Of a stretch of 64,000 nt of DNA, positions 9,199-40,505 are shown piece after piece; within the stretch, counting starts at the first letter, position 1; each line of letters opens with the position of its first letter. A model generated the notes under the pieces. It searched no databases. It was not told the DNA's origin and saw only the letters and a list, made by a program, of their open reading frames with translations. The DNA is from a virus, in the IMG/VR virus record IMGVR_UViG_3300009103_000015, positions 13,877 through 77,876 of that record; one strand, 5' to 3'. Position numbers and translations under genes: made by a program.

Positions 9199-9507
9199 AT
9201 GCCAAGTCGAGGAAGATACTGGAAACAAGGAGGACTAAAAGATAATGTAGTCACTTCAGCAGATATTAAAGATGCTTCAATCGTATCAGCAGACATCAAA
9301 ATTTTTGTATCATCAGAACAAACTGGAAATGGTTCAGCACAAAACATTGCTCATGGATTAGGTTCAACTCCTACCAAAGTAATTGTTGCTTTGACTGAAT
9401 TTGGTGGTTCAACAGCAGTAGATGTAGCAGAGGGAACTCATACATCAACTAATTGTGTTGTCACAGTTTCATCAGGTGTAAAATACAAAGTATGGGCACA
9501 GGTGTAA
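9199..9507 (+). CDS. Small beta-rich virion (decoration/fibre-associated) protein
   Basis: S/T/G/V-rich, IAHGLGSTPTKV motif common in fibre modules. Confidence 0.5.
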   Translation: MPSRGRYWKQGGLKDNVVTSADIKDASIVSADIKIFVSSEQTGNGSAQNIAHGLGSTPTKVIVALTEFGGSTAVDVAEGTHTSTNCVVTVSSGVKYKVWAQV

Positions 9508-9512
9508 GCGAT

Positions 9513-10289
9513 ATGAAAATCATTGACAACTTTGATTCAGTTGAAGAAAGAATTGAGAAATTCAATTCATGGAAAGATAGCTCTCCAAAATACCATTATG
9601 GTAAAAAGAAATTAAATCCAAACGATAACATTGTTATTGCTAAAACAACACAACCAACAGCAGATAATGGATTTATGACCAAAGCAGGAGAAAACAAACC
9701 ATACACACAATATATGTTAACACACAATCTCGTCACATCAGATGGAGATATTTATTATGCTAAGAAAATTACTTTAAAGAAATCAGATGGAACTGCATAC
9801 GGTGATACCGATTTTGCAACTGACGGAATATTCTTCCATCACATCAGTGGAAGTGTAAGTTCATCAACAACTTATGGTGCAATGATATTGGGAAGTGCCA
9901 ACGTCACAACACATCAATCAGATACTTATGGAGTTTCAGGAAACTCTGGAACAACTTTCCAATCTGGAGCTTATGATGCTTCACATGGTTCAATTAATAC
10001 AACTAAAGTCTTAACAGCAAACTATCCTCGTCATAATGACGGAGATGGAGATAACTCTGGTGGTGCAAACGATCAGGTCACATGGGCTTATTCATGGACT
10101 ACTGGCGACTTTGATACAACAGGTGCTACTGATTTGAACGGTGGTGTTATTGTTGACAGAGCAACCAACGCAACTCCAGCAAACTCTGCAAAACTGTTAT
10201 GCCACTTTGAATTTTCAAGTGCCTTCGAGAAGACTGGAAACGATACTTTGAAAGTGTTCGTTAATCATACCTTCGAGGGTGGAGCATAA
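9513..10289 (+). CDS. Putative virion structural protein
   Basis: HNLVT...LLCHFEF...KTGNDTLKVFV, G/S/T/D rich, within the fibre cluster. Confidence 0.5.
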   Translation: MKIIDNFDSVEERIEKFNSWKDSSPKYHYGKKKLNPNDNIVIAKTTQPTADNGFMTKAGENKPYTQYMLTHNLVTSDGDIYYAKKITLKKSDGTAYGDTDFATDGIFFHHISGSVSSSTTYGAMILGSANVTTHQSDTYGVSGNSGTTFQSGAYDASHGSINTTKVLTANYPRHNDGDGDNSGGANDQVTWAYSWTTGDFDTTGATDLNGGVIVDRATNATPANSAKLLCHFEFSSAFEKTGNDTLKVFVNHTFEGGA

Positions 10290-10419: not shown

Positions 10420-11271
10420 ATGGCACGAAAAGCTATCTATAAACACGCAACTCAAGTAGATGCAACTGCTTATCCTGATGATCCTTCAGCACCAATCGGA
10501 ACAAACGAATGGAATGAAGATCCAGATAGTGCAGGAATGTTAGGTTTCACAGCACAAACCGTAGCATCAGCAACAAGTGTAGCAGTATCAAATTCAGTAT
10601 TATCATTAACAGGTTCAACAGATGTAGCAACTTTCGCAACAGGTGACACAGCAGAGAATGATTTGCTTTGGGTCACAACAACTGGAACTGTCACATTAAA
10701 ACATGGAACAGGAAATATTTATACTAAATCAGGAGCAGATACAGATCTATCAACAACAGAACCATTAATCTTCATAAGAAAAGGTTCTAATTGGTATCAA
10801 TATGGTGGAGCACCTTCTGCAAGTCCATCATTCACTGGAACAATAAGTGGAGCAAACATGACACTATCAGGAAATCTAATTGTAAATGGAGCAACATCAA
10901 CTATCAATTCTACTACAATAACAGTAGATGATAAGAACATAGAATTAGCTTCAACTGCTAGTCCTTCAGATGCTTTGGCAGATGGTGGTGGAATAACAAT
11001 CAAAGGAACAACAGATAAGACTATCATATATACAAACGCAACAGGCGACTTTGATATTTCAGAGAATGTAGATATTGCAAGTGGTAAGAAATTTAAAATT
11101 AACGGAAATGACGTATTCAGTCCAATAGACTTAGACAGAGTAGGTTCAGCACCAGCAGATCCTTCTGCAAACAAATGTCTTGTATATGTAAAATCATTAG
11201 ATGCAAATAATGATGGAATATTTATTAAGATCAAGAAAGCAGGTCAATATAACGAGGTTCAGGTGGCTTAA
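10420..11271 (+). CDS. Fibre-like virion protein
   Basis: GNLIVNGATSTINSTTITVDDKNIEL...DGGGITIKG repeat type seen in marine phage fibres. Confidence 0.6.
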   Translation: MARKAIYKHATQVDATAYPDDPSAPIGTNEWNEDPDSAGMLGFTAQTVASATSVAVSNSVLSLTGSTDVATFATGDTAENDLLWVTTTGTVTLKHGTGNIYTKSGADTDLSTTEPLIFIRKGSNWYQYGGAPSASPSFTGTISGANMTLSGNLIVNGATSTINSTTITVDDKNIELASTASPSDALADGGGITIKGTTDKTIIYTNATGDFDISENVDIASGKKFKINGNDVFSPIDLDRVGSAPADPSANKCLVYVKSLDANNDGIFIKIKKAGQYNEVQVA

Positions 11272-11273
11272 AC

Positions 11274-14249
11274 ATGGCAATTAAATATCTAGCAGGCAAT
11301 AGAATAACAGGTTTATCAACAGATACAAAACCAACTAACGTTCCAACAGATTCAGAATTTACTGAAACAGATACTAAGAAACAATTTATCTGGAGTGGTT
11401 CAGCTTGGGTTGCTTCAGGAACAGGTGGAACAGTAGAAGGTTCAGAAATTACAGTAGCAACAATTCCATTAAACAGATTAGCAAACGGAACAGCAAACAA
11501 GACCATCGGTTATGATTCAAATGGAGCTATCGCAGAATTAGCTTCTAGTTCAGGTGTAGAAGCATCAAGTGCAGTAATGACTTATGATACAGTCGGTAAA
11601 TATGGAACTTACAAACCAATCTTGGGAGCAAATACAGATTATAGAACAAGACATGGTAAAGCAACATACTGGTCTGACTTTTCAGATTCAACAATGACTT
11701 CTGGTTGGCAACATAATGGAGATGGTGCTTATGTATCAGGTGGAAAACTTCATGCACAAGCAGATGATTCAACATCAACTTATGATTTATACACATTATT
11801 AGGAGATGCAAAAGTAGATGTAAGAAATTGGTGTCTTAGATTTACATTCCAGCCAAAACTTTCATCAAGAACACAAGGTTATTGTGGATTTGGTTTATCA
11901 TCAAAAGATAATTCAAAAGAATTAGATCAGTCACAAAACTGGGTAGGATTTATTTATCAAGCTGACACTGGTGCAGGTGGTTGGTCTTGGGGAAGTTGTT
12001 ATGGTTCACAGAATCCAGTTTCACACGCAAGAGATGATAGTATGGGTGGTTCAATTAACTATTCACAAACAAATAATGCATGGGCACACAAAACAAGAGT
12101 TTACATTGAAATTATCAGAGAAGGAAACAGATTCATTTTCAGAAGATATTCAGATAATGACTTTAGAGAATGTGTAGATGAATATGAACAAAACTCCGAT
12201 GCAAAGAACTATTTCACAGATCCAGATGAATCTGAAGATGGAAATGCAACAACTCAAAACGACCAAAGATTAAGATATTTGAAAGCATCAGGTCAAGGTG
12301 GAACAACATCAGGACAAGGAATGATGGATGCAGTTATTGACTATGTTCAATTCTGGAATGGTTCATGTGGATTATCATCAGCACCTTATTACTTAACAAG
12401 AAGAGCATGGGAAAGAGATGTCACTGGAACAAAACCAGCAGGTGAAAACATTGGTGGTAGAGAACATACTCATGGAACAATCTTTAGAAACTTCCCTGTC
12501 ACAGGAACTGAAAACGTAGCTTCTGACCACAAATGTATTGGTAATGAAGCATCAACATATTGGGATGCAGTAGGAGTAAAGATAGATTCTCAAGAACATC
12601 CTATTGTAATCAATAGATGGAATGGAGAAAGAGATAATGAACAGGTTTGGGTTAGACATAATGGTTATCCACTTAGAAGTGTAAAATTCTGGTTATGGAA
12701 AGAAGGAAGTCCAACTGGAAGACTTAGATTAGTTGTCTATGGACAATCATCAAACTCACACTTTAGATGTCGTTCAAAGAACTGGATAGATGCATCAACA
12801 TTATCATCAACAGCAGGTAAAGCAAATGCTACTGCATGTGAATTTTTCATTGACGGTTATTTACCAAGACATGACGACCACTTTGTTGTAGAATTGGAAG
12901 CACCAACTAAGACAGATGATGCAGATGGTTATACTATTCCAGCACCACACTATCGTGGACAATCACACGCATCAACAGCTAGAGTTCATATCTGTTGTAG
13001 AAATGATGCTAACAATGATACAGAAGATAATTGGTCAGGACAATATATGAGATTAGGTTATTGTTATAATAGACAAAGCACTGGTTCTAGTGGAACAGGT
13101 GTTCCAAATATGTCAAGAACAGGAACTACTAACACAAGCCACTATTGGTATGATGTTGGTGGAATTACAAGTGATGATTCTTGGACACCATACGTTGAAT
13201 GGAAATGGGGAGCAGATGCTTACATATCTCCACCAGAAGCAAACACACACATTGACTGTTTCGTAGGAGAAGATCAATGGAAGTATGAACAATATAATCA
13301 AGGTAGAAGTAATTATGATGATTGGCAAAGTGAATTATCAAGTAGTGACCCATTGACAATGTCATGGTCAACAACTCAACACAGTAATGGTTGGGAAACT
13401 GGAAACAGCACAAACCACGCATATTTCTGGGATAACGATTCAGATTCATTGACATCAAACACAGAAACTTACAATTCTAGAAGAATGAACATGGAAAATA
13501 TGGAATTTGACCAATATCGTGAATGTGACTTTAGTAGTGCAAAACACAGAACTATCATCATGAGAGTTTATTACAGATATGGTTCAATTATGTTCTTTGG
13601 AAGAGGAAACAATTCTAACTCATGGGAACCAAATGATAAAGGTGAGAAAGAAGCATTAGGAACAGGTAATCCATACATCAGAGATAGATACAATGAATGG
13701 AAAGAACTATGTTATGATGAGAACTATTATGGTTCATGGGATCACAGAGTAATTGTAATAAGTGGTTATTGGAGATACCTAAGAATGTATTTCCGTTCAA
13801 GATCAAACGACCAACAGATGAATACACAATTCTACTGGTATGCAAACTATCCAAGAAAGATTGTATCACATATTGATATCACTCCATTAAAGAAAGACTA
13901 TACACATAACGCATCATCAGCAAATGCATCAACTGATATCATGACTGCAACACAGTTAGAGATACAGAAACAAGATATTGATGAAACAACTACTAACGAA
14001 TATCCATTATACACAACTGTAAGAACAATTAACGTATCAGCATTAACAGATGGACAATCTAACTATATCAGAGTTCCAGTAGCAGATACAACTTGTTATC
14101 GTATCAGAGTAAAAGATTCAGGAAACAAAGTATTAGCATTATCACAAGTTAGGGTAAAGTATCATGACAGTAATGATATCTCATTCAATCATGGACATCA
14201 ACCTATGACAGCAACAGATGCAAGTTTGCAGTTGTCTGGAGAAGCATAG
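11274..14249 (+). CDS. Large putative receptor-binding/fibre protein
   Basis: N-terminal GLSTDTKPT...ETDT...WSGSAW anchor module, then W/Y/S/G-rich beta domains. Confidence 0.55.
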   Translation: MAIKYLAGNRITGLSTDTKPTNVPTDSEFTETDTKKQFIWSGSAWVASGTGGTVEGSEITVATIPLNRLANGTANKTIGYDSNGAIAELASSSGVEASSAVMTYDTVGKYGTYKPILGANTDYRTRHGKATYWSDFSDSTMTSGWQHNGDGAYVSGGKLHAQADDSTSTYDLYTLLGDAKVDVRNWCLRFTFQPKLSSRTQGYCGFGLSSKDNSKELDQSQNWVGFIYQADTGAGGWSWGSCYGSQNPVSHARDDSMGGSINYSQTNNAWAHKTRVYIEIIREGNRFIFRRYSDNDFRECVDEYEQNSDAKNYFTDPDESEDGNATTQNDQRLRYLKASGQGGTTSGQGMMDAVIDYVQFWNGSCGLSSAPYYLTRRAWERDVTGTKPAGENIGGREHTHGTIFRNFPVTGTENVASDHKCIGNEASTYWDAVGVKIDSQEHPIVINRWNGERDNEQVWVRHNGYPLRSVKFWLWKEGSPTGRLRLVVYGQSSNSHFRCRSKNWIDASTLSSTAGKANATACEFFIDGYLPRHDDHFVVELEAPTKTDDADGYTIPAPHYRGQSHASTARVHICCRNDANNDTEDNWSGQYMRLGYCYNRQSTGSSGTGVPNMSRTGTTNTSHYWYDVGGITSDDSWTPYVEWKWGADAYISPPEANTHIDCFVGEDQWKYEQYNQGRSNYDDWQSELSSSDPLTMSWSTTQHSNGWETGNSTNHAYFWDNDSDSLTSNTETYNSRRMNMENMEFDQYRECDFSSAKHRTIIMRVYYRYGSIMFFGRGNNSNSWEPNDKGEKEALGTGNPYIRDRYNEWKELCYDENYYGSWDHRVIVISGYWRYLRMYFRSRSNDQQMNTQFYWYANYPRKIVSHIDITPLKKDYTHNASSANASTDIMTATQLEIQKQDIDETTTNEYPLYTTVRTINVSALTDGQSNYIRVPVADTTCYRIRVKDSGNKVLALSQVRVKYHDSNDISFNHGHQPMTATDASLQLSGEA

Positions 14250-14272
14250 ATAGTTTTTATGGGTAGTCCTCA

Positions 14273-17200
14273 TTGGCTATCCTCAAGGTATTCCAGAATA
14301 GTATATTTGATTCTGACTTATTTCAAGCTCAAACAATAGGTAAGACATTCCAATCTAACATATTTGATAGTGATATCTTTCAACAAATACCTACCTTAAC
14401 AAGTATAGATAATGTATTTCAAACTGATATCTTTCAGAAAGTTTATGGTGGAAAATTATTATTCCAAAAACAATATACAATATCAACGAGTTCTGAAATA
14501 GCTAAAGTATTTCAATCTAGTATATTTGATTCTGATTTATTCCAAACAACTTCATTCACTCCAACGATATATCCTAAGAAAGTATTCCAGAATAACATAT
14601 TCCAGAATGTATTATTCCAAACAAAACAATTAGCTAATGCTGGAAAGTATATCTTCCAAAGTGGATTATTCCAAGCAGATGTATTTGATGTTCCAAACCT
14701 TATCAAGATTTCAATAAGTGAAATGATGAGTATCATTGAAGTTCAACCTGAAAAGGTCATGGGATTTGTAAACACATTCAATGATTCTGCAATAGAAATT
14801 CTAATGACTATATACAAAGTCATGGGTAAAACCAAGACTGCTGGTCTTGATGCTGTATCAACTACTGAACTTCAATATCATACAAGAGCTCGGAAGAATC
14901 ACATCCAAGAAGTTTTAGATTTATCAGAGTTTATTAGTTTTAGTAAGAAGACAGATAATACAAGTGTAGAAAAGGTATTTCAGTCTAACATATTTCAATC
15001 ATCAGTATTCCAAAAGAAGTATAAGAGAATTAGAGAATCAGCAGATAAAGTATTCAGTTCAATATATCAAAGTGATGTATTCCAAACATTAGGTTTCAAG
15101 TTATTAGATATTCCAAATGTATTCACATCAATATTTCAGAAAGATATATTCCAAGTTGCTCACACAGTATCAAACCCAGCACCATTCCAAACAAACATCT
15201 TCCAATCTAACATATTCCATATCACAGTAAAGATAAAACACGCAATCAATGAGAGTGTTGCAATTTCTGAATCAGTTTCATTCGCTAAAGGTAAACCACA
15301 AACAATTTCAGATAATGTAGGAATTAGTGAACAGAATAATTATATTGAAAACGCATTAGGACAGGCAAAGTCTGAAACAAGAAATGAATCACTATCAATC
15401 ACTGAATCAATTTCATTCGTAAAGAAGAAAGTAAAAACAGTTAGTGAAGATGTTTCAGTAGTAGAAGTATTAGATGCAGAAGCAAAGAGAGATCCAAATG
15501 TAGTTGCTAAATTATTCCAAACCAATATCTTTGATCAGGACATATTTCAAAAGAGATTCCTACTCAAACGACTACAAATATCCAAAGTATTTCAGCTTAA
15601 CATATTTGATACTGATATTTTCCAACAGGTTTTCAATCCTGATGTTATCACTAAGATATTCCAGACAAATGTATTCTCAACTAAATTATTCCAGCAAGAA
15701 ACAAAGCATAGTGCATTAGGAATTATTCAATCAATATTCCAAGTAGGACTATTCCAATCTGATACTTTCCAAACTATTGTTCCAATTCCAAAGATACCAG
15801 CACTTGATAGTGTAGGTATAACTGAAACAATTTCTACAAGAAGAATAAGAAAGAATCCAAAGAGTGTTTCAGAAAACATTTCAATCTCTGAAGGTTTGGT
15901 TAGCAGAAAGGGAGATGTTAAAACAATCTCTGAATCTATTGGAGTATCAGATTCATTATCATCACAATCAGGTTTCGTTAGAACCACAACAGAAAATGTT
16001 TCTATTTCAGAATCAATATCATTCAAGAAACATAAACAAATTGATGAAACAATTAATGTTTCTGAATCTGTAATAAGACCAAGAGGAATAGTTAGAACAA
16101 TTTCTGATGGATTAGGTATCACTGAATCAATAGTAAGACCAAGACCAATAACTAGAATAATTAATGAAACAATATCAATCACTGAATCATTAGTTAAACC
16201 TTGGTTCAAGAGAATAGATGAAGCAGTTGGAATTACTGAATCTGTTCAAAGAGTGAGAAAATTAATCAGGACTTTCAACGAGAATATTTCAATCACAGAA
16301 ACAGGTAAACCTGAATTTTATAGATTATCAGAAAAATTCTTTGAGAAAGTTTTCCAAACAAACGTATTCCAACAAGATGTATTCCAAAAGAAGTATGATG
16401 CTAATGCAATTAAGAAAGCAATATTCCAATCATTCTTCCAAAGTGATATATTCCAACAGGCATATCAACCATTAGCAAGAACAAAGAAAACAGTATTCCA
16501 AACTGACATATTCGATTCTAAATTATTCCAATTTGAGTATAATGTTGAAAAACCACTTGCAAGATTATTCCAAAGAAGTGTATTCCAAAATAATATATTC
16601 CAAGCAAGAAAATTATTCAAACCATCTACAAGTGTTAAGAAATTATTCCAAACGAATGTATTCCAAACAGATTATAGAAAGAGAGTATTCCAACAGGCAT
16701 TTGATACTGCTGTAATTAAGATTAGAAACGTATTCAGTGGAATATATCAATACCCATTATTCCAAGCACCTGAACCAATAAGAAAACCAATAGAAGAGAT
16801 AGAAGGAATATCAGAATCATTAGTTGTAATTGGTGGAAAACCACAGAGTATTCCTGAAACAATTAATGTTGTTGAATCAACTTCAAGGTCCAGAACATTA
16901 GTTAGAAGTATTTCAGATTCAGTTGGAGTATCAGATACAATTCCATATTACAAACAAAGAACATGGAAGATTCCTCAATCAGATACCATTGGTGTCACAG
17001 AAGAAATTACTACAAAGAAAAGACAGGTCACATACTTTGTCAATAAAATATTCCAAACTGATATCTTCGACCAAGACATATTCCAAAAGAAATGGGATCA
17101 ACATAAACTCATTACAAAAGTGTTCCAATCTAATATCTTTGATACTGACATATTCAGTCAAGGTTTCAATAAGTTCATCATTCCATCTATATTCCAAACG

Positions 17201-20200
17201 AATGTATTTGGTGGAAAGTTCTGGCAGAAACAATATGATACTAGAAAACTTGGTAAGTATATCTTCACAACAGTATTCCAAAGTGATGTATTCCAAGCAC
17301 CATTCAAGAAAAAGAAATCAGTTGTTGATACAATAGGAATATCTGAATCATCTTCAAAGGTTAAAGGATTTGTTAAGAAGGTAGATGAATCTCTAGGAAT
17401 TACAGAAACATTATCTAAGATTGTTAGAAAGACAATTACTAAATCAATATCAGAAACAGTTGGAATATCTGAAATAAAGAAGTTCGCTAAATCATTACAG
17501 GTCACAGTCACAGAGAATGTAGAAATCATAGATCTAACCAGAAAGAAACTAGAGAGAGTAATCTTTACAATTCCACGTATCTTCCAAACGAATATTTTCG
17601 ATCAAGATGTATTCCAAAAACTTTGGGATCCAACTGCTACTGCAATATCTAAAATATTCCAAAGTAATGTATTTGATACAGATGTTTTCCAACAAGCATT
17701 TAGCACTAACATTAAACCAAAGATATTCGACCAAGATATATTCCAAGTCAATGTATTCCAAACTAAATCACATGACATACTAAAGAAATCTAAATCAATA
17801 TTCACAGGTGGAATATTCCAAGTTAATGTATTCCAAACTCCACAGAAACTAACAAAATCCGTATATGATAATGTAGGAATTGTAGAATCTGCAATAAAGA
17901 AAGTCATTCCACAAATTAGTAAATCTATTTCAGAATCAGTAGGAGTTGTAGAATCATCATCTAAATCAGTAGGAAAGACAAAGACAGTTCCATTAGATAA
18001 TGTAGGAATTACAGAAACAACAGGTTATGCAAAACTCTTAAAGAAATCTATATCGGACAGCGTATCAATATTAGATCTAACAAGAAAGAAATTAGAACAG
18101 GTCATATTCACTATTCCAAGAATATTCCAAACCAATATATTCCAACAACCTACAAGCAGTTATCCAAAATACATATTCCAAAAGTTGTGGGATCCATCAT
18201 CTACATCTATTGCTAAAGTATTTCAATCAGATGTATTCGATAACGATCTATTCCAACAGGCAAGTGACACGAATATCAAACCTAAAGTGTTCACAAGTAT
18301 ATTCCAGCACAACATATTCCAAACCAAACAACAAGATTTGGCAAAGAAATCAAAGGTTGTATTCCAAGTTAAAGTATTCCACAGTAATGTATTCCAAAGT
18401 GCAATACAGGTTAAGAAAACAATCTATGATACTATTGGAGTTGTTGAATCAACAGTAAGAAAGATAATTCCACAGATAAGTAAATCGATATCAGAGAATC
18501 TTGGAATCGTTGAAAGTATCAGTAAGAGTATTGGTAAGACAAAGACCGTTCCAACTGATAGTGTAGGAATTACTGAATCAACTGGATTCGCTAAACTATT
18601 GAAGAAATCTGTAAGTGATACAGTTGGAATTATTGATCTAACTAGATACAACAAAGAACAAACAATATTCACAATTCCGAGAGTGTTCCAAACTAACATA
18701 TTTGATAATGACGTGTTCCAACAACTATGGGATCCATCAAGCACTTCGATTAGTAAAGTATTCCAGTCTAACATATTTGATACCGACGTATTCCAGCAAG
18801 GATTCTTCACTAATATCAAGTCAAAGGTATTCCAAAACATATTCCAACACAATGTCTTCCAAACAAAGATATTTGATATTAAGAAGAAAGCAACAAAGAT
18901 ATTCCAAGTCAAAGTATTCGACTTCAAAGTATTCCAATCTCCAATCGGAATATTCAAGGCAATATACGATACAGTTAATGTCGCAGAATCTACTGTTAAG
19001 AAGATTATTCCTCAAATCAGTAAATCAATTAATGAGAATGTAGGAATATCTGAATCAGAGAATAAATCAATAGGAATTACTAAGACTGCTCCAACTGATT
19101 CTGTATCAATATCTGAAACAACACAGTTTGCTAAGAAATTAACAAAGACTATTACTGAATCTGCAATCACAATCTATGATTTCACAAAACATTTCAAGAA
19201 ACAAACCATCTTCACGATACCAAAGGTTTTCCAATCAAATGTATTCGATACAGACGTATTCCAAACTCTATACAATCCACTTGCAACTGCATTTAGTAAA
19301 GTATTCCAATCCAATGTGTTTGACCAAGATGTATTCCAGAAGGCATACGATAGTGTCATAAGACCAGCAGTATTCACTTCGGTATTCCAGTCTAAAGTAT
19401 TCCAGAAGGCAGTTGATACGAGAAAGATTAGAACAAAACCATTCCAGTATAAAGTATTCCAATACAATGTATTCCAAGCACCTCAACTACTCAAGGAATC
19501 AATCTATGAAACTGTTAATGTTAACGAATCAATCGCAACAAGAAAAGAGAATGTAGTAAGAGCTCAAAAGACAGATACAGTTGGAATAACAGAATCCGTC
19601 AGCACAGTAAAAGGAATTGCAAAAGATACAACAGAAAGTGTTGGAATAGTTGAAACTGTTTACAAATCAATCGGTGTAGTAAAATCTGTCACTGAACCTG
19701 TAAGTGTTGTAGAAGTCTTAACCAAATTCGATTGGAGAAAGATTACATTTATCTATAAAGTGTTCCAAGACTTCTTCCAAGAAAATGTATTCCAACAACA
19801 GTATAACATATTCCCATTCAGTGGAAGAAGAACTGCAAAGATAAAGAAACTATTCCAATCCAACGTCTTTGACAATGATGTATTCCAATCTAAAGTATTC
19901 GATCTAGATATAATTCCAAGAGTATTCAATCAATGGGTATTCCAACAACCTAGTGATGAATATCCATATCCTGTATTCCAGAGATTATACAAACTATCAG
20001 AACATGAGGAAACAAGGACAAAGATATTCCAACAGAACATATTCCAGTCCAATCTATTCTCTGTAAGACTACCATTACACATAGAGTATAAACAAGAATA
20101 TGGAACTGATCCACCAATCGCAATCAATGAATCTATAAGTATTGTTCTCGGTAAGAACCAAAGAATCAATGAGAATATTGGAATCAGTGAATCAATATCA

Positions 20201-23200
20201 TTCAATACTGCACAGAACCAAACCATATCTGAATCAGTTGGTATTACAGAAAACTTCAGTAGATCTAGAAGTCTTGTAAGAATATTCACAGAAGAATTAC
20301 CAATCTTAATGTTCAGAGATGGTTGGCTAACTCCAAGAAACCTAGTAAGAACGATAGATGAAACTGTTGGAATCACAGAAACAAAGACCTTCCTACAAGG
20401 AATGATTAAGACTATTTCAGAATCCGTATCGGTAGATGAATTTAGACAGAGATTAAGAAAGCCAATAGTTAGATCAATAGCTGAAGCAATTAGTATCGCT
20501 GAAAGTGTTGTAAGAGTTAGACCTGTAATACGTTCAATCTTTGAAGATGTATTCATAGATGGATTCTCATACGAGGGAATTGGAAAGGCAGTTAGAGATA
20601 GAACAAGAATCGTAAGTGAAACTGTTTCAGTAGATGAGTTTAGACAAAGACTTAGAAAGTTATTGGTTAGAACTGTATCTGATAATGTATCTATTGCAGA
20701 TGTTCCAAACAAGGCAAGAGGTATAGCAAGAACCCTATCTGATTCATTAGGAATAACAGATCTATCTGTAAGAACAAGAAACAGAATAAAATCTATTTCA
20801 GATTCAGTTTCAATTACAGAATCAATCGTAAGAGTATTCACACTTGCTAGAAGTATCAATGAAACTGTTAACGTGGAAATGTTCAGAGATAGAGCTAGAG
20901 TAATTGCTAGATCAATTTCAGAATCTATTGGAATTATAGAATCAACTGTTTATGCTAGAATACTTAACAGAATTTTATCTGAATCTGTATCTGTTGAAGA
21001 AGCATTATCCAAAGCAAGAACATTATCAAGAATCATATCTGATAGTGTAGGATTAACAGAACTACCAAAGACAGCTAGAACAATTTCAAGAGCAGTAGCA
21101 GATTCAATAGGATTAACAGAATCAATATCTAAGGCAAGAACTCTAGCAAGATCAATATCTGATTCAGTAGATATTTCAGAATTTAGAGGAAAGGCAAGAG
21201 ATCTCATAAGAGTATTCGTAAACGAAACAGTTGGAATTGTAGAATCAACATCTAGAGTAAGATCACTAGCAAGAAGTGTAGTAGAAAACATTGGAATAAC
21301 AGATGTCATTTCAAAGGCAAGAACATTAGTTAGATCTGTATCTGATTCTATTGGAATAACTGAATCATTAGTTAAAGCAAGATCTATCGCAAGAGGTATT
21401 GTAGAATCTACTGGAATTGTAGAATCCATTGGTAGAGCAAGAGGTGTAGCTAGAACAATAACTGATTCATTAGAAATGTATGAGTTTGGTTGGTTAGGAT
21501 TAAGATTACCATTAAGAGTATTAGGAAGATCTAGAATTGTTAACGAATCATTAGCAATATCTGAATCTCCAACATCTGTAAGAGGTAGATTAAAGAGAAT
21601 AGCAGAAAGCATTGGAATCACAGAAGCCAAATCAAAGGCATTAGGTTTCGTAAGAACATTAACAGAATCTGCAATTTCAATAACTGAAACTTTGAATAGA
21701 GTTAGAGCAGTATCTAGACCAATTTCAGAATCAGTAGGAATTACAGATGCTAGAGATATACAAAGAGCATTATCTAGAATACTTTCAGAGAATGTTGCTG
21801 TATCAGAATCATTAGTTAAAGTAAGAACAATGATAAGAGTTCTATCTGAATCTGTTGCTATATCTGAAGTTCCAACGAAGGTCAGAATAATACTTAGAAT
21901 GATATCTGAATCCATTGGAATAACTGAAACAATATCTAGAGCAAGAGGACTTTACAAGATAATTAACGAATCTGTTGGAATCACTATGTTTAGAAATAGT
22001 GGTAGATTAATCGCTAGAATTATTTCAGATTCAATAGGAATTACTGAAGCAAAGAACATATTTAGAAATAGATTCAGAGCAATACAAGAATCAGTATCAT
22101 TAACTGAAGCAATCGTAAGAATAAGAAGCCTAAGTAGAATAATCTCTGATAATGTAGCAGTCGCAGAAGTTTCAGAGAAGATTAGAATAATACTTAGATC
22201 TATTTCTGAATCAATCTCAATAGCAGAAACAGTAGCAAGATCTAGAACCTTATCTAGAATGTTATCAGAAAGTGTTTCAGTCACACAGTTTAGAAATAGT
22301 GCTAGAATAATTGCTAGAGTAATAACAGAATCAATTTCAATATCTGAAACAGCAATAAGAGTTAGAGGAATTGCTAGAATATTACAAGAATCTGTTGGCT
22401 TAGTAGAATCAATAGATATTCAGAGAGCATTATCAAGAATAAGAGCAGAAACTATTGCTATCACAGAATCAACTTCTAAGTTTAGACTTAGATTACGATC
22501 TATTGTTGAATCAGTAGGTATAACCGAAGTTCCAGTTAGAGTTAGAGGATTATCTAGAATCATATCTGAATCTGTCGGAATTACAATGTTCAGAAACTCT
22601 GCAAGATTAATTGCTAGAATAATATCTGAATCAATTTCAGTAGCAGAATCTATCACAACATTAAGAGGAAGATTAAGAGCAATAATAGAATCCATTGGAA
22701 TTACAGATGTTCCAACTAGAGCAAAGACTATCGCTAGAATAATACTAGAAACTGTTGCAGTAGAAGACTTTAGAGGTAGAGCTAGAGAATTAATCAGGGT
22801 TATTGTCAACGAATCAGTTGCTATCACAGAAGCAATACACAAACAATTCTTCATCGCAAGAGCTATTTCAGAAGGAATTGCAATAGCAGAATCTATTGTT
22901 AGATCTAGAGGACTATCTAGAATTATATCTGAATCAACTTCAATATCTGAATCATTAGTAAGACTAAGAACATTATCTAGAGCAATAGCTGAAGTTGTTA
23001 ACACAACAGAATTTAGAGGTAGAGCAAGAGAACTATTAGCAAGAGTAATTTCTGAATCAATAGCAATTACAGAATCATCAATCAAAGTAAGAGGTAGATT
23101 GAAACGTATTGCAGAATCAGTAGCAATAACTCCTGAAACAACTTCTAGAGCAATAGGATTTGTAAGAACTGTTCCATTAGATGTAATAGGAATAACTGAA

Positions 23201-24253
23201 TCATTCAGTAAGGTTAGAGGAAGAATACACGCAGTATCTGAATCTGTTTCAATCACTCAATTCCAAGAAAGATTAAGAAAGATACTAGCAAGAATCATAA
23301 CAGAATCAATCTCTATATCTGAAGTAGAACAACGTGTAAGAAATATCAGTAGAATTGATACTGCTTCAATCTCAATCTCTGAAACCAATGAGAGATTAAG
23401 AAAAGTATTAGCTAGAATCATAACTGAAACTATTGGTATCACAGAAACATTAGATAGACTTTCAAACAAACGTAGAGTTGTATCTGAATCAATTTGGGTT
23501 TATGAGTTTAGAGGAAGAGCAAGAGAGTTAATCAGAGCAATAATAAATGAAACACTATCCATATCTGATTCTGCAATTAATGTAAGAGGTAGAATAAAAT
23601 CAATAGCAGATACTGTCACAATAACAGAACTGATTTCCAAATCAATCATTCTGATAAAGATGATTTCGGATTCAGTAGGAATAACAGAATCTACAAACAT
23701 AAGAAAATTGATTTCTGTAAAGATTGCAGAAGTAGTTTCAATCACAGAATCAGTGATACGAATAAGACCTGTAATAAGAGTAATCACAGAATCAATAGGA
23801 ATCACAGAATCAGTATTATCATTCCTCATTCGTGATATAATCAAAGTCATATCAGAATCAGTTTCAATCGCAGAAGAATCTGTTGTTTCAAGATGGATTG
23901 GATTAGTATCTACAATATCTAGAGTTAGATTAGAAAGTGTAAGCATAAGCAGAATATTAACCGAGAAAGATTCAGTATCAAGAATAGTAAGAATCACAGA
24001 AGTTGTATCAAAGATATTCACAATCGCAGAATTAGAAACAATATCAAGAATAATAACCTCAAAACTATTCACTTCCAGAATAGTAAGTGTGAAAGAGTTC
24101 AAATCTTACAGAAGAATATTTGAGTTCTTATCTAGAATATACTCACAGAAAGAAACATCTTCAGAAATAAAATCTAGTGAAATACAAGAATCAGTCGTGA
24201 GAAATGTTAAAAGTGCTGTATCTAGAATAAGAAATATCTTTAAATTTGAATAG
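14273..24253 (+). CDS. Giant 3326-aa repetitive virion protein (FQ-pentapeptide and ISESxGITE repeats)
   Basis: Continuous 9.98-kb ORF (TTG start) made of two repeat types; no Cys seen; within the structural cluster. Confidence 0.8.
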   Translation: MAILKVFQNSIFDSDLFQAQTIGKTFQSNIFDSDIFQQIPTLTSIDNVFQTDIFQKVYGGKLLFQKQYTISTSSEIAKVFQSSIFDSDLFQTTSFTPTIYPKKVFQNNIFQNVLFQTKQLANAGKYIFQSGLFQADVFDVPNLIKISISEMMSIIEVQPEKVMGFVNTFNDSAIEILMTIYKVMGKTKTAGLDAVSTTELQYHTRARKNHIQEVLDLSEFISFSKKTDNTSVEKVFQSNIFQSSVFQKKYKRIRESADKVFSSIYQSDVFQTLGFKLLDIPNVFTSIFQKDIFQVAHTVSNPAPFQTNIFQSNIFHITVKIKHAINESVAISESVSFAKGKPQTISDNVGISEQNNYIENALGQAKSETRNESLSITESISFVKKKVKTVSEDVSVVEVLDAEAKRDPNVVAKLFQTNIFDQDIFQKRFLLKRLQISKVFQLNIFDTDIFQQVFNPDVITKIFQTNVFSTKLFQQETKHSALGIIQSIFQVGLFQSDTFQTIVPIPKIPALDSVGITETISTRRIRKNPKSVSENISISEGLVSRKGDVKTISESIGVSDSLSSQSGFVRTTTENVSISESISFKKHKQIDETINVSESVIRPRGIVRTISDGLGITESIVRPRPITRIINETISITESLVKPWFKRIDEAVGITESVQRVRKLIRTFNENISITETGKPEFYRLSEKFFEKVFQTNVFQQDVFQKKYDANAIKKAIFQSFFQSDIFQQAYQPLARTKKTVFQTDIFDSKLFQFEYNVEKPLARLFQRSVFQNNIFQARKLFKPSTSVKKLFQTNVFQTDYRKRVFQQAFDTAVIKIRNVFSGIYQYPLFQAPEPIRKPIEEIEGISESLVVIGGKPQSIPETINVVESTSRSRTLVRSISDSVGVSDTIPYYKQRTWKIPQSDTIGVTEEITTKKRQVTYFVNKIFQTDIFDQDIFQKKWDQHKLITKVFQSNIFDTDIFSQGFNKFIIPSIFQTNVFGGKFWQKQYDTRKLGKYIFTTVFQSDVFQAPFKKKKSVVDTIGISESSSKVKGFVKKVDESLGITETLSKIVRKTITKSISETVGISEIKKFAKSLQVTVTENVEIIDLTRKKLERVIFTIPRIFQTNIFDQDVFQKLWDPTATAISKIFQSNVFDTDVFQQAFSTNIKPKIFDQDIFQVNVFQTKSHDILKKSKSIFTGGIFQVNVFQTPQKLTKSVYDNVGIVESAIKKVIPQISKSISESVGVVESSSKSVGKTKTVPLDNVGITETTGYAKLLKKSISDSVSILDLTRKKLEQVIFTIPRIFQTNIFQQPTSSYPKYIFQKLWDPSSTSIAKVFQSDVFDNDLFQQASDTNIKPKVFTSIFQHNIFQTKQQDLAKKSKVVFQVKVFHSNVFQSAIQVKKTIYDTIGVVESTVRKIIPQISKSISENLGIVESISKSIGKTKTVPTDSVGITESTGFAKLLKKSVSDTVGIIDLTRYNKEQTIFTIPRVFQTNIFDNDVFQQLWDPSSTSISKVFQSNIFDTDVFQQGFFTNIKSKVFQNIFQHNVFQTKIFDIKKKATKIFQVKVFDFKVFQSPIGIFKAIYDTVNVAESTVKKIIPQISKSINENVGISESENKSIGITKTAPTDSVSISETTQFAKKLTKTITESAITIYDFTKHFKKQTIFTIPKVFQSNVFDTDVFQTLYNPLATAFSKVFQSNVFDQDVFQKAYDSVIRPAVFTSVFQSKVFQKAVDTRKIRTKPFQYKVFQYNVFQAPQLLKESIYETVNVNESIATRKENVVRAQKTDTVGITESVSTVKGIAKDTTESVGIVETVYKSIGVVKSVTEPVSVVEVLTKFDWRKITFIYKVFQDFFQENVFQQQYNIFPFSGRRTAKIKKLFQSNVFDNDVFQSKVFDLDIIPRVFNQWVFQQPSDEYPYPVFQRLYKLSEHEETRTKIFQQNIFQSNLFSVRLPLHIEYKQEYGTDPPIAINESISIVLGKNQRINENIGISESISFNTAQNQTISESVGITENFSRSRSLVRIFTEELPILMFRDGWLTPRNLVRTIDETVGITETKTFLQGMIKTISESVSVDEFRQRLRKPIVRSIAEAISIAESVVRVRPVIRSIFEDVFIDGFSYEGIGKAVRDRTRIVSETVSVDEFRQRLRKLLVRTVSDNVSIADVPNKARGIARTLSDSLGITDLSVRTRNRIKSISDSVSITESIVRVFTLARSINETVNVEMFRDRARVIARSISESIGIIESTVYARILNRILSESVSVEEALSKARTLSRIISDSVGLTELPKTARTISRAVADSIGLTESISKARTLARSISDSVDISEFRGKARDLIRVFVNETVGIVESTSRVRSLARSVVENIGITDVISKARTLVRSVSDSIGITESLVKARSIARGIVESTGIVESIGRARGVARTITDSLEMYEFGWLGLRLPLRVLGRSRIVNESLAISESPTSVRGRLKRIAESIGITEAKSKALGFVRTLTESAISITETLNRVRAVSRPISESVGITDARDIQRALSRILSENVAVSESLVKVRTMIRVLSESVAISEVPTKVRIILRMISESIGITETISRARGLYKIINESVGITMFRNSGRLIARIISDSIGITEAKNIFRNRFRAIQESVSLTEAIVRIRSLSRIISDNVAVAEVSEKIRIILRSISESISIAETVARSRTLSRMLSESVSVTQFRNSARIIARVITESISISETAIRVRGIARILQESVGLVESIDIQRALSRIRAETIAITESTSKFRLRLRSIVESVGITEVPVRVRGLSRIISESVGITMFRNSARLIARIISESISVAESITTLRGRLRAIIESIGITDVPTRAKTIARIILETVAVEDFRGRARELIRVIVNESVAITEAIHKQFFIARAISEGIAIAESIVRSRGLSRIISESTSISESLVRLRTLSRAIAEVVNTTEFRGRARELLARVISESIAITESSIKVRGRLKRIAESVAITPETTSRAIGFVRTVPLDVIGITESFSKVRGRIHAVSESVSITQFQERLRKILARIITESISISEVEQRVRNISRIDTASISISETNERLRKVLARIITETIGITETLDRLSNKRRVVSESIWVYEFRGRARELIRAIINETLSISDSAINVRGRIKSIADTVTITELISKSIILIKMISDSVGITESTNIRKLISVKIAEVVSITESVIRIRPVIRVITESIGITESVLSFLIRDIIKVISESVSIAEESVVSRWIGLVSTISRVRLESVSISRILTEKDSVSRIVRITEVVSKIFTIAELETISRIITSKLFTSRIVSVKEFKSYRRIFEFLSRIYSQKETSSEIKSSEIQESVVRNVKSAVSRIRNIFKFE
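17527..19740 (+). repeat. About four tandem ~543-561-bp (~181-187 aa) super-repeats within the giant ORF
   Basis: D(L/F)T...IFTIPxxFQ unit recurs at ~17531, ~18074, ~18635 and ~19177. Confidence 0.8.
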
Positions 24254-24268
24254 ATTAATGAATAGAGT

Positions 24269-24619
24269 ATGGCAACTTATGAAGATGCAGTTATCAGAAT
24301 CGGAAATAAAGGAACTGTAATAGATGTGAAAATGTATTCAGTATCTGCCGATGGAAATACTCAAACTGCATTAGATCTATCTGCTGGAAATTCATATCAG
24401 ATTGAGTTCAAAAGAAAAGATTCTACAACTCAAGTTGTCACAGCAACCGTAAAGAATGGAAGTGGAACAGATGGTATTCTCACATATACTGACACAGGTG
24501 GAGCTGTCTTTGCTCACACTAGTGCAAAAAGAGGTAGATGGGAAGTAAGAGGAATCATTAATTATGCTTCAGGCAACGTTTTTAAAGGAAGCTGGGAAGG
24601 TTTTACTGTTGGCGAATAG
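24269..24619 (+). CDS. BppU-N-like Ig-fold virion protein
   Basis: IEFKRKDST...ATV...GILTY...GRWEVRGIINY pattern. Confidence 0.5.
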   Translation: MATYEDAVIRIGNKGTVIDVKMYSVSADGNTQTALDLSAGNSYQIEFKRKDSTTQVVTATVKNGSGTDGILTYTDTGGAVFAHTSAKRGRWEVRGIINYASGNVFKGSWEGFTVGE

Positions 24620-40070: not shown

Positions 40071-40468
40071 GTGAAACAGAAAAAAACTACGATCCAGCAA
40101 AAAAAGCTAAGTTTTCTGAATTGAAGACGGAATGGGCAAAACTAAAGAAAGAAAGTAGTGCTAGTGATTCTGAACGTGCAACAGCAAAACAAAGAATCAA
40201 TGCAATACAAAGGGAACTTGATTTAGAAGTCACCGATTTCAATGCTCCAAAGAAAACGAATAATGCTTCAAATTCATCAGGATCTCCACAGAGATCTAAC
40301 GAAGCAAGATTCACAGAAGTAAAAGCTTTCCATGATACAGCAGGGAAATTAGCCAATGATATATTGGATAGTTTCTATGCAAACAATGGATTGACACCTG
40401 AACCAAAAGAAAGACTAATCGCTTGGGAAGGACTTTTGAAAAGCTTTGCAATCGTGTGGAGTAGATGA
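40067..40468 (+). CDS. Hypothetical helical protein
   Basis: 133-aa coupled ORF between RHH and RadA. Confidence 0.6.
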   Translation: MSETEKNYDPAKKAKFSELKTEWAKLKKESSASDSERATAKQRINAIQRELDLEVTDFNAPKKTNNASNSSGSPQRSNEARFTEVKAFHDTAGKLANDILDSFYANNGLTPEPKERLIAWEGLLKSFAIVWSR

Positions 40469-40505
40469 ACCACACTATCCTTCCCTTTTTTATGGAGATG
40501 TTAAA

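What the first reader, a model, noticed from the sequence alone, without database searches (positions are those of the whole stretch)
14273..24253. 3326-aa protein built from two alternating repeat grammars
Seen: type A blocks are triplets of 5-residue units (e.g. KVFQSNIFDTDVFQ), putting Phe and Gln in register. Type B blocks are ~19-residue units (ISESIGITESxxRxRxLxR) with alternating hydrophobics and an acidic then basic half. A and B alternate until ~20100; after that only B continues and its basic residues switch from mostly Lys to mostly Arg. It takes ~16% of the window. Inference: a long beta-solenoid or beta-spiral filament with periodic knobs, possibly a new fibre fold.
Basis: partly seen in the sequence, partly recalled or inferred. 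Interest (0 to 1): 0.72.

Follow-up and report, generated by a model that had tools for sequence, protein, structure and literature searches.

The report
Giant repeat-only fibre of archaeal virus
A 78-kb marine virus of ammonia-oxidising archaea spends an eighth of its genome on one 3,326-residue protein built only of short repeats; it sits in a swappable tail-fibre gene cassette and varies eight-fold in length between related viruses, so it is most likely a very long host-contact fibre of an undescribed type whose fold is still unknown.

Summary
ORF 14273..24253 is real and 3,326 aa long. It has ten blocks of Phe-pentad triplets alternating with blocks of a repeat whose period is 20 residues, not 19. 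From residue ~1940 only the 20-mer continues, and its basic residues switch from Lys to Arg. A third grammar of about 10 residues closes the C-terminus. It is not an assembly artefact: DNA copies are only 60-80% alike, and colinear contigs occur in three other studies.

Context points to a virion fibre.
- The gene ends a conserved cassette: an unknown 190-278-aa protein, a tail-fibre-like protein, 1-3 probable receptor binders, then this gene and a ~115-aa protein.
- The cassette is shared by virus lineages with unrelated terminases.
- Orthologues range from 391 to 3,326 aa within a group whose terminases are 70-81% identical.
- A head-gene relative has the same design with 'SGFTx' pentads instead of 'xVFQx'.
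- The 20-mer has a small residue at every second position. It also occurs in archaeal cell-surface proteins and other uncultured viruses.

There is no Pfam or PDB match, and both AlphaFold monomer runs failed. So "beta-solenoid" is unproven, and a GP4/A1002-type "rope" carrying bead proteins is a live alternative. A tape measure is unlikely.

The scan noted this same stretch from another window, and 20-residue-repeat giants in ammonia-oxidiser genomes.

The parts
14273..24253 (+). Whole gene: 3326-aa repeat-only protein (P0001), TTG start, pI 9.8, net charge +115
   Evidence: The start agrees with a near-identical metagenome fragment, P0029, that begins MAILKVFQ.
14273..14716 (+). N-terminal A block (residues 1-148). 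The first Phe-pentad triplet starts at residue ~5. This is the one part conserved in all FQ-type orthologues.
   Evidence: N-terminal 140 aa: own vs L003 z = 50; own vs L013, L007 and L002 z = 7-10.
14717..14950 (+). Residues 149-226: insert without pentads, a degenerate B-like stretch. It is conserved in close relatives P0021 and P0022.
14951..20089 (+). Alternating A blocks (Phe-pentad triplets [KND][VIL]F[QD][ST]) and Lys-rich B blocks (3-8 units of 20 aa). Residues ~900-1939 form six 172-187-aa super-repeats.
20090..23899 (+). B-only run, residues 1940-3209: about 60 Arg-rich 20-residue units with a small residue at every second position. 'F-R' variant units recur about every 100 aa in parts of the run.
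23900..24253 (+). C-terminal tail, residues 3210-3326. Third grammar: ~10-residue units with [K/R]-[I/L]-[F/Y] motifs. Unrelated in sequence to the tail of the otherwise colinear orthologue L003.
24269..24619 (+). 116-aa ORF directly downstream. It is the positional partner of the ~117-aa BppU_N-like protein that follows every orthologue. It is 40% identical to the L015 copy and only 21-23% identical to the others.
11274..14249 (+). 991-aa protein (P0018) with the conserved 'M-x-I-x-Y-L-A-G-N-R-I-x-G' N-terminus. Cassettes hold 1-3 paralogues. It is the probable receptor-binding protein.
   Evidence: 72% identity to the L003 copy
10420..11271 (+). 283-aa tail-fibre-like protein (P0019, 'MARKAIYKHATQVD...'), second gene of the cassette
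   Evidence: phrog_6002, virion structural protein, 1.3e-19; the L013 homologue hits tail-fibre PHROGs at 6e-49..
9453..10289 (+). 278-aa protein of unknown fold, first gene of the conserved cassette
   Evidence: No PDB, Pfam or PHROG match.

Best explanation
The gene encodes a virion fibre protein of the host-recognition module of a tailed virus of marine ammonia-oxidising archaea. The whole chain is shaft or thread; there is no globular head.

The 20-residue B units adopt an extended, beta-type conformation. One face is made of small residues, and Gly sits at positions 8 and 18. These units give the fibre its length, and the length is tuned by gain and loss of units (391 to 3,326 aa in relatives).

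The triplets of Phe-pentads (A units) lie at the N-terminal, probably distal, end. In the giant versions they also recur every ~180 residues. They are aromatic contact sites, either for the host surface or for partner proteins of the cassette.

The C-terminal tail and the small protein encoded just downstream change together with the virus backbone, so they are probably the end fixed to the virion.

Shown: the repeat architecture, the cassette context, its transfer between lineages, the length variation and the beta-type periodicity. Inferred: presence in virions, oligomeric state, polarity of attachment and contact function.
For: 1. Cassette context. The order is [W_9453-like][tail-fibre-like P0019][LAGNRI proteins][this gene][~115-aa protein] in 11 IMG/VR loci. 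P0019 relatives hit tail-fibre PHROGs at 6e-49.
2. Transfer between lineages. Loci L002-L010 share TerL at 70-81% identity, while the window's own TerL has no BLAST similarity to theirs. Yet the giant is colinear with L003 at 42% identity over 2,937 aa. Exchange between unrelated backbones is typical of host-recognition genes.
3. Length variation. Orthologues are 391, 437, 523, 1149, 1563, 1601, 2774, 3022 and 3326 aa within that group.
4. Conserved design. The positional orthologue in a head-gene relative (portal 48% and capsid 63% identical) is 3,842 aa. It has the same design but uses [ST]GFT[ILFV] pentads, again in runs of three.
5. The B run is an extracellular stalk elsewhere. It occurs in proteins with signal peptides or membrane anchors (N-terminal in P0003 and P0007-P0011, C-terminal in P0006), and beside LamG, beta-propeller, PKD, FG-GAP and PGF-pre-PGF domains. 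Named sources are Nitrososphaera, Methanosarcinales and Odinarchaeota. One of 61 relatives carries the podophage GP4 fibre-tail adaptor domain at 4e-14.
6. Beta character. Small/large alternation is family-wide. In the coupling analysis i,i+2 couplings exceed i,i+3 and i,i+4.
7. Polarity. The N-terminal 140 aa of own vs L003 give z = 50, but the C-terminal 110 aa give z = -1.1. The L003 tail resembles those of L013 and L007 (z ~8). The downstream small protein follows the same split.
8. Host. The RadA at 40446..41798 has Nitrosopumilaceae and Cenarchaeum as its best named cellular hits, at 45-51% identity.
Against: - There is no direct evidence that the protein is in virions.
- Both AlphaFold2 monomer models failed, so neither fold nor oligomeric state is known.
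- No receptor-binding or knob domain is present.
- Net charge is not conserved (+115 here, -123 in the L015 orthologue), so a simple electrostatic adhesion mechanism does not hold for the family.
- In this genome no tape measure protein was identified elsewhere.
- The link between the window's own 116-aa ORF and the BppU_N-like proteins is weak. hhalign gives E = 0.0055 at 6.6% probability, and there is no Pfam hit.
Confidence: 0.58

Rival explanations
1. Beads-on-a-rope scaffold. This is a sub-type of the fibre reading with a different mechanism. The chain has no fold of its own. It runs as an extended thread, and its repeat strands complete the beta-sandwiches of small partner proteins. Candidate partners are the downstream ~115-aa Ig-like protein, the W_9453-like protein, or the N-termini of the LAGNRI proteins. 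The arrangement would resemble the rope protein of podophage GP4, the N-terminal rope of A1002 gp39 or the Bas63 collar. It would be anchored by its C-terminal end.
For: - AF2 finds no monomer fold, and there is no globular domain anywhere.
- The period-2 strand-like pattern runs without a phase break for hundreds of residues.
- A conserved small protein is encoded directly behind the gene, often with start and stop overlapping. Five of 10 copies, all among the relatives, hit BppU_N, an Ig-like sandwich, best E = 9.8e-9; the window's own copy and that of L015 do not.
- The backbone-specific C-terminal end matches the C-terminal anchoring of known ropes (PMC13730344, PMC12609058).
- One B-run relative carries the GP4 Gp77 adaptor domain.
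- Earlier scan notes on ammonia-oxidiser genomes propose the same idea. These are leads only.
Against: - The genome has no Pfam Gp77 or Collar hit.
- No partner resembles the GP4, A1002 or Bas63 bead proteins by sequence.
- B-run profiles do not hit any rope chain in the PDB.
- A fully decorated 3,326-aa rope would need on the order of a hundred or more beads per chain. That is hard to reconcile with a small gene translationally coupled to the giant one.
- Many B runs sit in single polypeptides behind globular heads, where a self-standing stalk is the simpler reading.
Confidence: 0.22
2. Tail tape measure protein. The chain would fill the tail tube and set tail length.
For: - It is very long and repetitive, with regularly spaced aromatic residues, and its length varies among relatives. 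All of these are known of tape measures.
- No other tape measure was recognised in this genome.
Against: - The periodicity is beta-type and the composition is rich in Ile, Val, Ser and Thr, not alpha-helical.
- The gene lies at the end of the fibre cluster, behind the receptor-binder genes.
- Relative L013 has a separate tape-measure-like ORF upstream of its tail-tip genes, though the hit is weak (phrog_9959, E = 9e-4).
- The gene moves between backbones together with the fibre genes.
- A seven-fold length range within a group whose TerL is 70-81% identical would mean tails of roughly 65 to 450 nm.
- The same repeat occurs in membrane-anchored cell-surface proteins.
Confidence: 0.04
3. Not a virion part. 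It would be an intracellular or released low-complexity protein, for example a cohesive matrix or an aggregation or exclusion factor. Alternatively it would be an internal capsid or ejection protein packed with the DNA.
For: - AF2 gives no confident structure.
- The protein is basic (pI 9.8), with an Arg-rich distal two fifths.
- In this genome the gene lies just upstream of the portal gene.
- The virus also encodes other unusual, probably packaged, proteins (earlier scan note, not tested here).
Against: - The regular hydrophobic and small-residue pattern is conserved and under clear selection. It is not that of a disordered protein.
- The orthologue in the closest head-gene relative is strongly acidic, with net charge -123.
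- In most relatives the gene is not next to the portal gene but ends the fibre cluster.
- Only 1 match to the proposed K-[ASG]-x-E protease motif was found, against ~3 expected.
Confidence: 0.1

Closest known systems
Chain-like 'beads-on-a-rope' fibres of phages GP4 (rope protein + Fiber-1 gp80 + adaptor gp77), A1002 (nozzle-rope gp39 + gp40/gp41) and Bas63 (collar rope domain + whisker gp5)
   Same: - A long thread-like polypeptide without a globular fold of its own lies in a fibre module.
- The anchoring end is probably C-terminal.
- A small beta-sandwich protein is encoded beside it.
- One B-run relative carries the Gp77 adaptor domain.
   Different: - There is no sequence similarity to any rope, bead or adaptor chain in the PDB or Pfam.
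- This protein is 5-10 times longer than known ropes.
- It has a strict 20-residue repeat and Phe-pentad triplets, neither of which is described for ropes.
- No binding of beads has been shown.
Trimeric beta-structured virus fibres (adenovirus and reovirus triple beta-spiral, T4 gp5/gp12 triple beta-helix, T4 long tail fibre gp34-gp37)
   Same: - A repetitive shaft with short units and conserved Gly.
- Alternating residue pattern.
- Length changes by unit number.
- Encoded at the end of the tail gene cluster, with a small gene behind it.
   Different: - No C-terminal knob or receptor-binding tip.
- Unit length is 20 with a small residue at every second position, unlike the 15-residue spiral or 8-residue helix motifs.
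- No sequence match.
- The trimeric state is untested.
Pentapeptide-repeat proteins (Pfam PF00805 family, right-handed quadrilateral beta-helix)
   Same: The period is five residues with an invariant aromatic or aliphatic centre. [ST][ND][IVL]F[QD] loosely recalls A(D/N)LXX.
   Different: - Runs are only three pentads long and are separated by ~10 other residues.
- No Pfam pentapeptide hit at E <= 1.
- AF2 gives no beta-helix.
NCBIfam NF033849 'serine-rich protein' (ser_rich_anae_1)
   Same: This was the only library model that touched the B run (91 bits, E = 3e-26).
   Different: The score is far below the family cut-off of 650 bits. Only repeat-like composition is shared, and the family has no known function.
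Tail tape measure proteins
   Same: They are long and repetitive, and their length is variable.
   Different: See the membership test. Periodicity, gene position and mobility with the fibre genes all disagree.

Membership tests
Tail tape measure protein | Predominantly alpha-helical chain | tested here: not met
   The period-2 small/large alternation has lag-2 autocorrelation +0.47, with shuffles at 0.00 +/- 0.03. Couplings at i,i+2 exceed those at i,i+3 and i,i+4. Composition is 30% Ile+Val+Thr and 12% Ser. The low-confidence AF2 helices are not counted.
Tail tape measure protein | Encoded between tail chaperone genes and distal-tail/hub genes; one per tail module | tested here: not met
   In 11 loci the gene follows the fibre and receptor-binder genes and ends the module. 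L013 has a separate, weak tape-measure-like ORF upstream.
Tail tape measure protein | Length proportional to tail length | not testable with these tools
   No virion images exist for this virus group.
GP4/A1002/Bas63-type fibre rope | Extended chain without its own fold that threads bead dimers by beta-augmentation | tested here: inconclusive
   AF2 monomer pLDDT was 33-41 and a strand-like pattern is present.
GP4/A1002/Bas63-type fibre rope | Bead protein of the gp80/whisker type and a Gp77-type or collar adaptor in the same genome | tested here: not met
   No PF23148 or PF07484 match in the complete genome. No PDB match for the neighbouring small proteins. A small protein of another family (BppU_N-like in relatives) is present instead.
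Pentapeptide repeat (PF00805) | Long uninterrupted tandem pentads matching A(D/N)LXX; match to the Pfam model | tested here: not met
   Runs have exactly 3 pentads in 28 of 33 cases. No Pfam hit.
Trimeric beta-helix / beta-spiral fibre | Homotrimer with intertwined repeat shaft | not testable with these tools
   Only monomer prediction was available. The failure of the monomer models is compatible with an obligate oligomer but does not show one.
Trimeric beta-helix / beta-spiral fibre | Sequence or profile match to a solved fibre shaft | tested here: not met
   PDB profile searches with the A, B and wider B-family alignments gave no fibre hit at E <= 1-10.
NCBIfam NF033849 serine-rich protein | Score above the curated cut-off (650 bits) | tested here: not met
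   91 bits.
BppU_N (PF10651), for the downstream small protein | Match to the Pfam model | tested here: inconclusive
   Five of 10 family members match, best E = 9.8e-9. The copies shown score 17-22 bits against a cut-off of 23.1. The window's own 116-aa ORF does not match, and it links to the others only at hhalign E = 0.0055.

The most novel reading that the evidence does not exclude
The protein is a new kind of virus appendage: an obligately extended, repeat-only thread that could reach from about 100 nm to about 1 micrometre. Its 20-residue '(small-X)10' unit would be a general, so far unnamed archaeal extracellular building block shared between ammonia-oxidiser cell surfaces and their viruses. 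The Phe-pentad triplets would be regularly spaced docking sites that load many copies of the cassette's receptor-binding proteins. The result would be a multivalent 'bottle-brush' that raises the capture radius for rare hosts in the deep ocean.
Probability: 0.15. Interest if true: 0.85.

Novelty: new variant of a known kind. Interest (0 to 1): 0.62.

Why it matters
No tailed virus of ammonia-oxidising archaea has been cultured or imaged, and how such viruses find and hold their hosts is unknown.

This gene, with its cassette, is the clearest candidate for their host-contact apparatus, for three reasons:
- it is exchanged between unrelated virus lineages;
- it is tuned in length over an eight-fold range;
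- it costs up to an eighth of the genome.

The 20-residue unit, with a small residue at every second position, recurs in more than a hundred uncharacterised archaeal surface and viral proteins. It has no Pfam family and no solved structure. One structure would therefore annotate a large set of 'hypothetical' giants.

The independent use of 'xVFQx' and 'SGFTx' pentads, both in runs of exactly three, marks a small structural or binding motif that can be tested directly.

Tried and rejected
Library and database searches on the giant
- Pfam and PHROGs: nothing usable.
- NCBIfam: only NF033849, far below its cut-off.
- GenBank phages, by megablast and tblastn: no match. The portal also gave no match.
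- The B-type relative P0025 hit only a doubtful, opposite-strand stretch of Mycobacterium phage Aminay.
- PDB sequence and profile searches with the A/B alignments, the wider B family, the cassette proteins and the small protein gave no meaningful hit. Designed helical repeats at E = 0.01-0.07 were disregarded.

Structure
- AlphaFold2 on a 322-aa B run (9-row alignment) gave pLDDT 40.7. On an A-B-A-B segment (16 rows) it gave pLDDT 33.4. Neither model was good enough for fold searches, so none were run.
- Overlapping repeat windows as pseudo-homologues failed, because MAFFT aligned them by self-identity.
- ESM Atlas could not read new sequence. For the homologue P0044 it listed only unnamed, all-viral clusters.

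Searches for relatives
- The portal and P0010 found nothing in viral contigs. Alignment A4 was too diverse to seed a scan.
- Neither the FQ family nor P0010 was found in the 185,579 species genomes.

Ideas tested and dropped
- Hairpin registers i+j = 26 and 42, which I proposed from charge complementarity, got no coupling support.
- The strong i,i+20 coupling is a per-protein 'dialect' effect, because unit identity does not fall with unit distance. It is therefore not evidence for solenoid stacking.
- Cationic binding to the anionic Nitrosopumilus S-layer (PMC11153153) was dropped as a family mechanism, because the L015 orthologue has net charge -123.
- The capsid-protease motif K-[ASG]-x-E is not enriched: 1 observed against ~3 expected.

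Other
- No RNA holder was listed among the sequencing runs.
Full report
**1. The observation**

The window is bases 13877-77876 of a complete 77,876-bp virus record with direct terminal repeats. All genes lie on the + strand. ORF 14273..24253 is open for 3,326 codons from a TTG. A near-identical metagenome fragment, P0029, begins MAILKVFQ and supports that start.

- Type A.
  - FQ occurs 97 times, spaced mostly 5, 10 or 15 residues apart.
  - F-x4-F-x4-F occurs 42 times against 2.0 in shuffles.
  - The pentad consensus is [K/N/D]-[V/I/L]-F-[Q/D]-[S/T].
  - Runs are exactly three pentads long in 28 of 33 cases.
- Type B.
  - The period is 20, not ~19 (identity autocorrelation 0.27, z = 22.6).
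  - The consensus is R-I-I-S-E-S-V-G-I-T-E-S-x-x-R-A-R-G-L-A.
- Layout.
  - Ten A blocks alternate with B blocks up to residue ~1939, which is nt 20089.
  - Residues 1940-3209 are B only.
- Lys-to-Arg switch.
  - K/R changes from 67/29 in early B to 38/156 in late B.

I add four points.

- A 180-187-aa A+B super-repeat spans residues ~900-1950.
- Residues 149-226 are a degenerate insert.
- The last ~117 residues carry a third grammar of about 10 residues, with [K/R]-[I/L]-[F/Y] motifs.
- Every second residue through the B run is small (G/A/S/T/N). Autocorrelation is -0.42 at lag 1 and +0.47 at lag 2, and the pattern persists to lag 24. Shuffles give 0.00 +/- 0.03.

**2. Not an artefact**

- DNA repeat copies are only 60-80% identical, so nothing could have collapsed or expanded in assembly.
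- Logan contigs of another sample of the same study tile the gene at 100% identity. Contigs from other studies tile it colinearly at ~95% and ~93%, with mostly substitutions and in-frame indels.
- An independent IMG/VR contig, L003, encodes a 3,022-aa orthologue. It is colinear with residues 1-2937 at 42% identity.

**3. What surrounds it**

Upstream genes:

- 9453..10289 encodes a 278-aa protein of unknown fold.
- 10420..11271 encodes P0019, which is tail-fibre-like. It hits phrog_6002 at 1.3e-19. Its L013 homologue hits tail-fibre PHROGs at 6e-49.
- 11274..14249 encodes P0018, 991 aa, with the N-terminal motif MAIKYLAGNRITG.

Eleven IMG/VR loci found with the A-block patterns hold the same ordered cassette. 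They carry one to three paralogues with the LAGNRI-type N-terminus, then the FQ/B gene.

These loci share a terminase at 70-81% identity. The window's terminase has no BLAST similarity to it, and most other genes differ too. The cassette has therefore moved between virus lineages, as host-recognition modules do.

Within the tight terminase group the FQ/B orthologue measures 391, 437, 523, 1149, 1563, 1601, 2774 and 3022 aa. The shortest forms have one N-terminal A block, about 15-20 B units and a basic tail.

The host is very probably a marine ammonia-oxidising archaeon. The viral RadA has Nitrosopumilaceae, Cenarchaeum and Nitrososphaerales as its only named cellular hits, at 45-51% identity. 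The closest protein fragments come from TARA mesopelagic samples.

**4. A second version of the same design**

P0010 (3,836 aa) was found by the first homology search. It lies on two metagenome contigs of 33% G+C.

- It is followed by a 113-aa homologue of the window's ORF 24269..24619 (40% identity).
- Next come a portal that is 48% identical and a capsid protein that is 63% identical to those of the window.
- It is preceded by a 2,484-aa tail-fibre-like protein.

So it is the positional orthologue in a head-gene relative. Its A units are [S/T]-G-F-T-[I/L/F/V], again in runs of exactly three (32 of 40 runs). They alternate with B-like units, and a long B-only run and a ~10-residue C-terminal grammar follow. 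What is conserved is 'three Phe, five residues apart', not the residues around them.

**5. A conserved small partner and the polarity of the protein**

Every FQ/B gene is followed at once by a 111-121-aa ORF. In L002, L006, L008 and L009 the start and stop overlap. The eight copies in the terminase group are 42-68% identical to each other, far more than the giants are.

Five of the ten copies hit Pfam BppU_N, the Ig-like baseplate adaptor domain of lactococcal phages, with best E = 9.8e-9. The three relative copies shown individually score 17-22 bits against a cut-off of 23.1.

The window's own 116-aa ORF and its L015 homologue do not hit BppU_N. They link to the others only weakly: 21-23% identity, colinear, hhalign E = 0.0055. 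For this window the link is therefore positional.

The polarity argument rests on three comparisons.

- The window's giant and L003's are strongly alike at the N-terminus (z = 50) and colinear to residue 2937.
- Their C-terminal 110 residues are unrelated (z = -1.1).
- L003's tail resembles those of the other members of its terminase group, at z ~8.

The C-terminal end and the small protein thus follow the virus backbone, while the N-terminal FQ part crosses backbones. I infer that the C-terminus is the virion-proximal end.

**6. The B unit elsewhere**

A full scan of 1.84 billion representatives gave 194 hits at E <= 1e-3.

- The close hits are FQ-type fragments.
- Most other hits share only B blocks ('x-T-D-x-x-G-I-T-D-x-x-x-x-x-R-x-x-x-R').

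Partner domains are extracellular types: LamG (11 of 61), DUF2341, DUF4082, NosD, beta-propellers, P_proprotein, PKD, FG-GAP and PGF-pre-PGF. One relative has the podophage GP4 fibre-tail adaptor domain Gp77 at 4e-14.

Named sources are Nitrososphaera, Methanosarcinales and Odinarchaeota. Several long homologues start with a signal peptide or membrane anchor (P0003, P0007-P0009, P0011), or end in one (P0006). The FQ family has none.

The small/large alternation holds in 7 of 9 homologues tested. No FQ-type gene was found in 185,579 species genomes or in GenBank phages.

**7. Fold**

- Nothing in Pfam, PHROGs or the PDB matches. NCBIfam NF033849 scores 91 bits against a cut-off of 650.
- AlphaFold2 monomer runs gave pLDDT 40.7 for the B run and 33.4 for A-B-A-B. 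This speaks mildly against a simple monomeric solenoid. It fits either an obligate oligomer or a chain that folds only on partners.
- I ran a mean-field coupling analysis on 2,198 gap-free unit pairs from 262 proteins.
  - Local couplings are strongest at i,i+2, not i,i+3 or i,i+4, which is beta-like.
  - There is a modest antidiagonal around Gly18 (pairs 17-19, 15-21 and 14-22).
  - The hairpin registers I had proposed from charge pairing get no support.
  - The strong i,i+20 signal is a per-protein dialect effect, because unit identity does not fall with distance. It is therefore no evidence for stacking.

The fold remains open.

**8. Mechanism and rivals**

Best reading (0.58): a virion fibre of the host-recognition cassette. 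It is all shaft, its length is tuned by unit number, it is probably fixed by its C-terminal end, and its Phe-pentad triplets act as contact or docking sites.

Rope variant (0.22): solved phage structures suggest a concrete alternative. In GP4, A1002 and Bas63 an extended 'rope' polypeptide, anchored at its C-terminal side, threads small bead dimers by beta-augmentation (PMC13730344; PMC12609058). The failed monomer models, the unbroken strand pattern, the adjacent small sandwich protein and the Gp77-carrying relative all fit this. Against it:

- the genome has no Gp77 or Collar match;
- there is no sequence link to known ropes or beads;
- full decoration of 3,326 residues would need implausibly many beads.

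Tape measure (0.04): contradicted by periodicity, by gene position, by mobility with the fibre genes, by a weak separate tape-measure-like ORF in L013 and by the cell-surface relatives.

Non-virion or internal protein (0.10): not excluded, but the conserved ordered pattern and the acidic orthologue argue against a disordered or DNA-binding role.

**9. Novelty**

The kind of object, a repetitive virus fibre, is known. This family, the 20-residue (small-X)10 unit and the three-pentad Phe motif are not described in any library searched. I call it a new variant of a known kind.

The scan had noted this same stretch from another window (e1-6023036). In ammonia-oxidiser genomes it had also noted 20-residue-repeat giants read as beads-on-a-rope fibres (e1-5316079, e1-5719798). 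I used those notes as leads to the literature and tested them only in part.

**Limits**

- The Atlas could not read new sequence.

Noticed in passing
window 14273-24253: The 3,326-aa protein has 149 Ala, 80 Pro and 116 Gly but no Ala-Ala and no Pro-Gly dipeptide. This fits the genome-wide GCNGC/CCNGG avoidance noted by other first-stage readers.
   Followed up: partly
window 14001-24000: GC skew flips inside the gene, at the border between the A/B-alternating part and the B-only part. It runs from about -0.05 to -0.09 before 20000 and from +0.11 to +0.15 after. The likely cause is codon content: TTC/CAA in the first part against AGA/GAA in the second.
   Followed up: no
window 19930-24102, minus strand: Long antisense ORFs of 309, 321, 278 and 200 aa lie inside the B-only run. 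They are probably a by-product of the repeat codons lacking reverse-complement stops, not genes.
   Followed up: no
window 24269-24619; L002-L013 directly behind each orthologue: A conserved ~115-aa protein always follows the giant gene, often with overlapping stop and start. Five of the ten copies, all among the relatives, hit Pfam BppU_N; the window's own copy does not.
   Followed up: yes
L004:6718-15783 (IMGVR_UViG_3300002242_000345): The orthologue is split over four reading frames (388 + 1073 + 417 + 1190 aa). This could be sequencing error or a decaying gene.
   Followed up: no
L015:2507-21508 (JABAOH010004501.1): Two giant genes lie in tandem: a 2,484-aa tail-fibre-like repeat protein and the 3,842-aa GFT/B protein. 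Together they take ~19 kb just upstream of the portal gene.
   Followed up: partly
window 11274-11320; L006, L007, L010, L013 cassettes: One to three neighbouring genes per cassette share a short N-terminal motif (M-x-I-x-Y-L-A-G-N-R-I-x-G) ahead of unrelated bodies. This looks like a common docking peptide on exchangeable receptor binders.
   Followed up: no
window 34988-37897: The 969-aa protein of the tail region is not tape-measure-like in composition, and no tape measure was recognised anywhere in the window. The tail type of this virus is unknown.
   Followed up: partly
B units, positions 5-11 (family-wide): The motif D/E-[ST]-h-G-h-[TS]-D/E around the conserved Gly8 resembles ion-binding turns of extracellular repeat proteins. 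A possible Ca2+ site, from my own reading of the profile.
   Followed up: no
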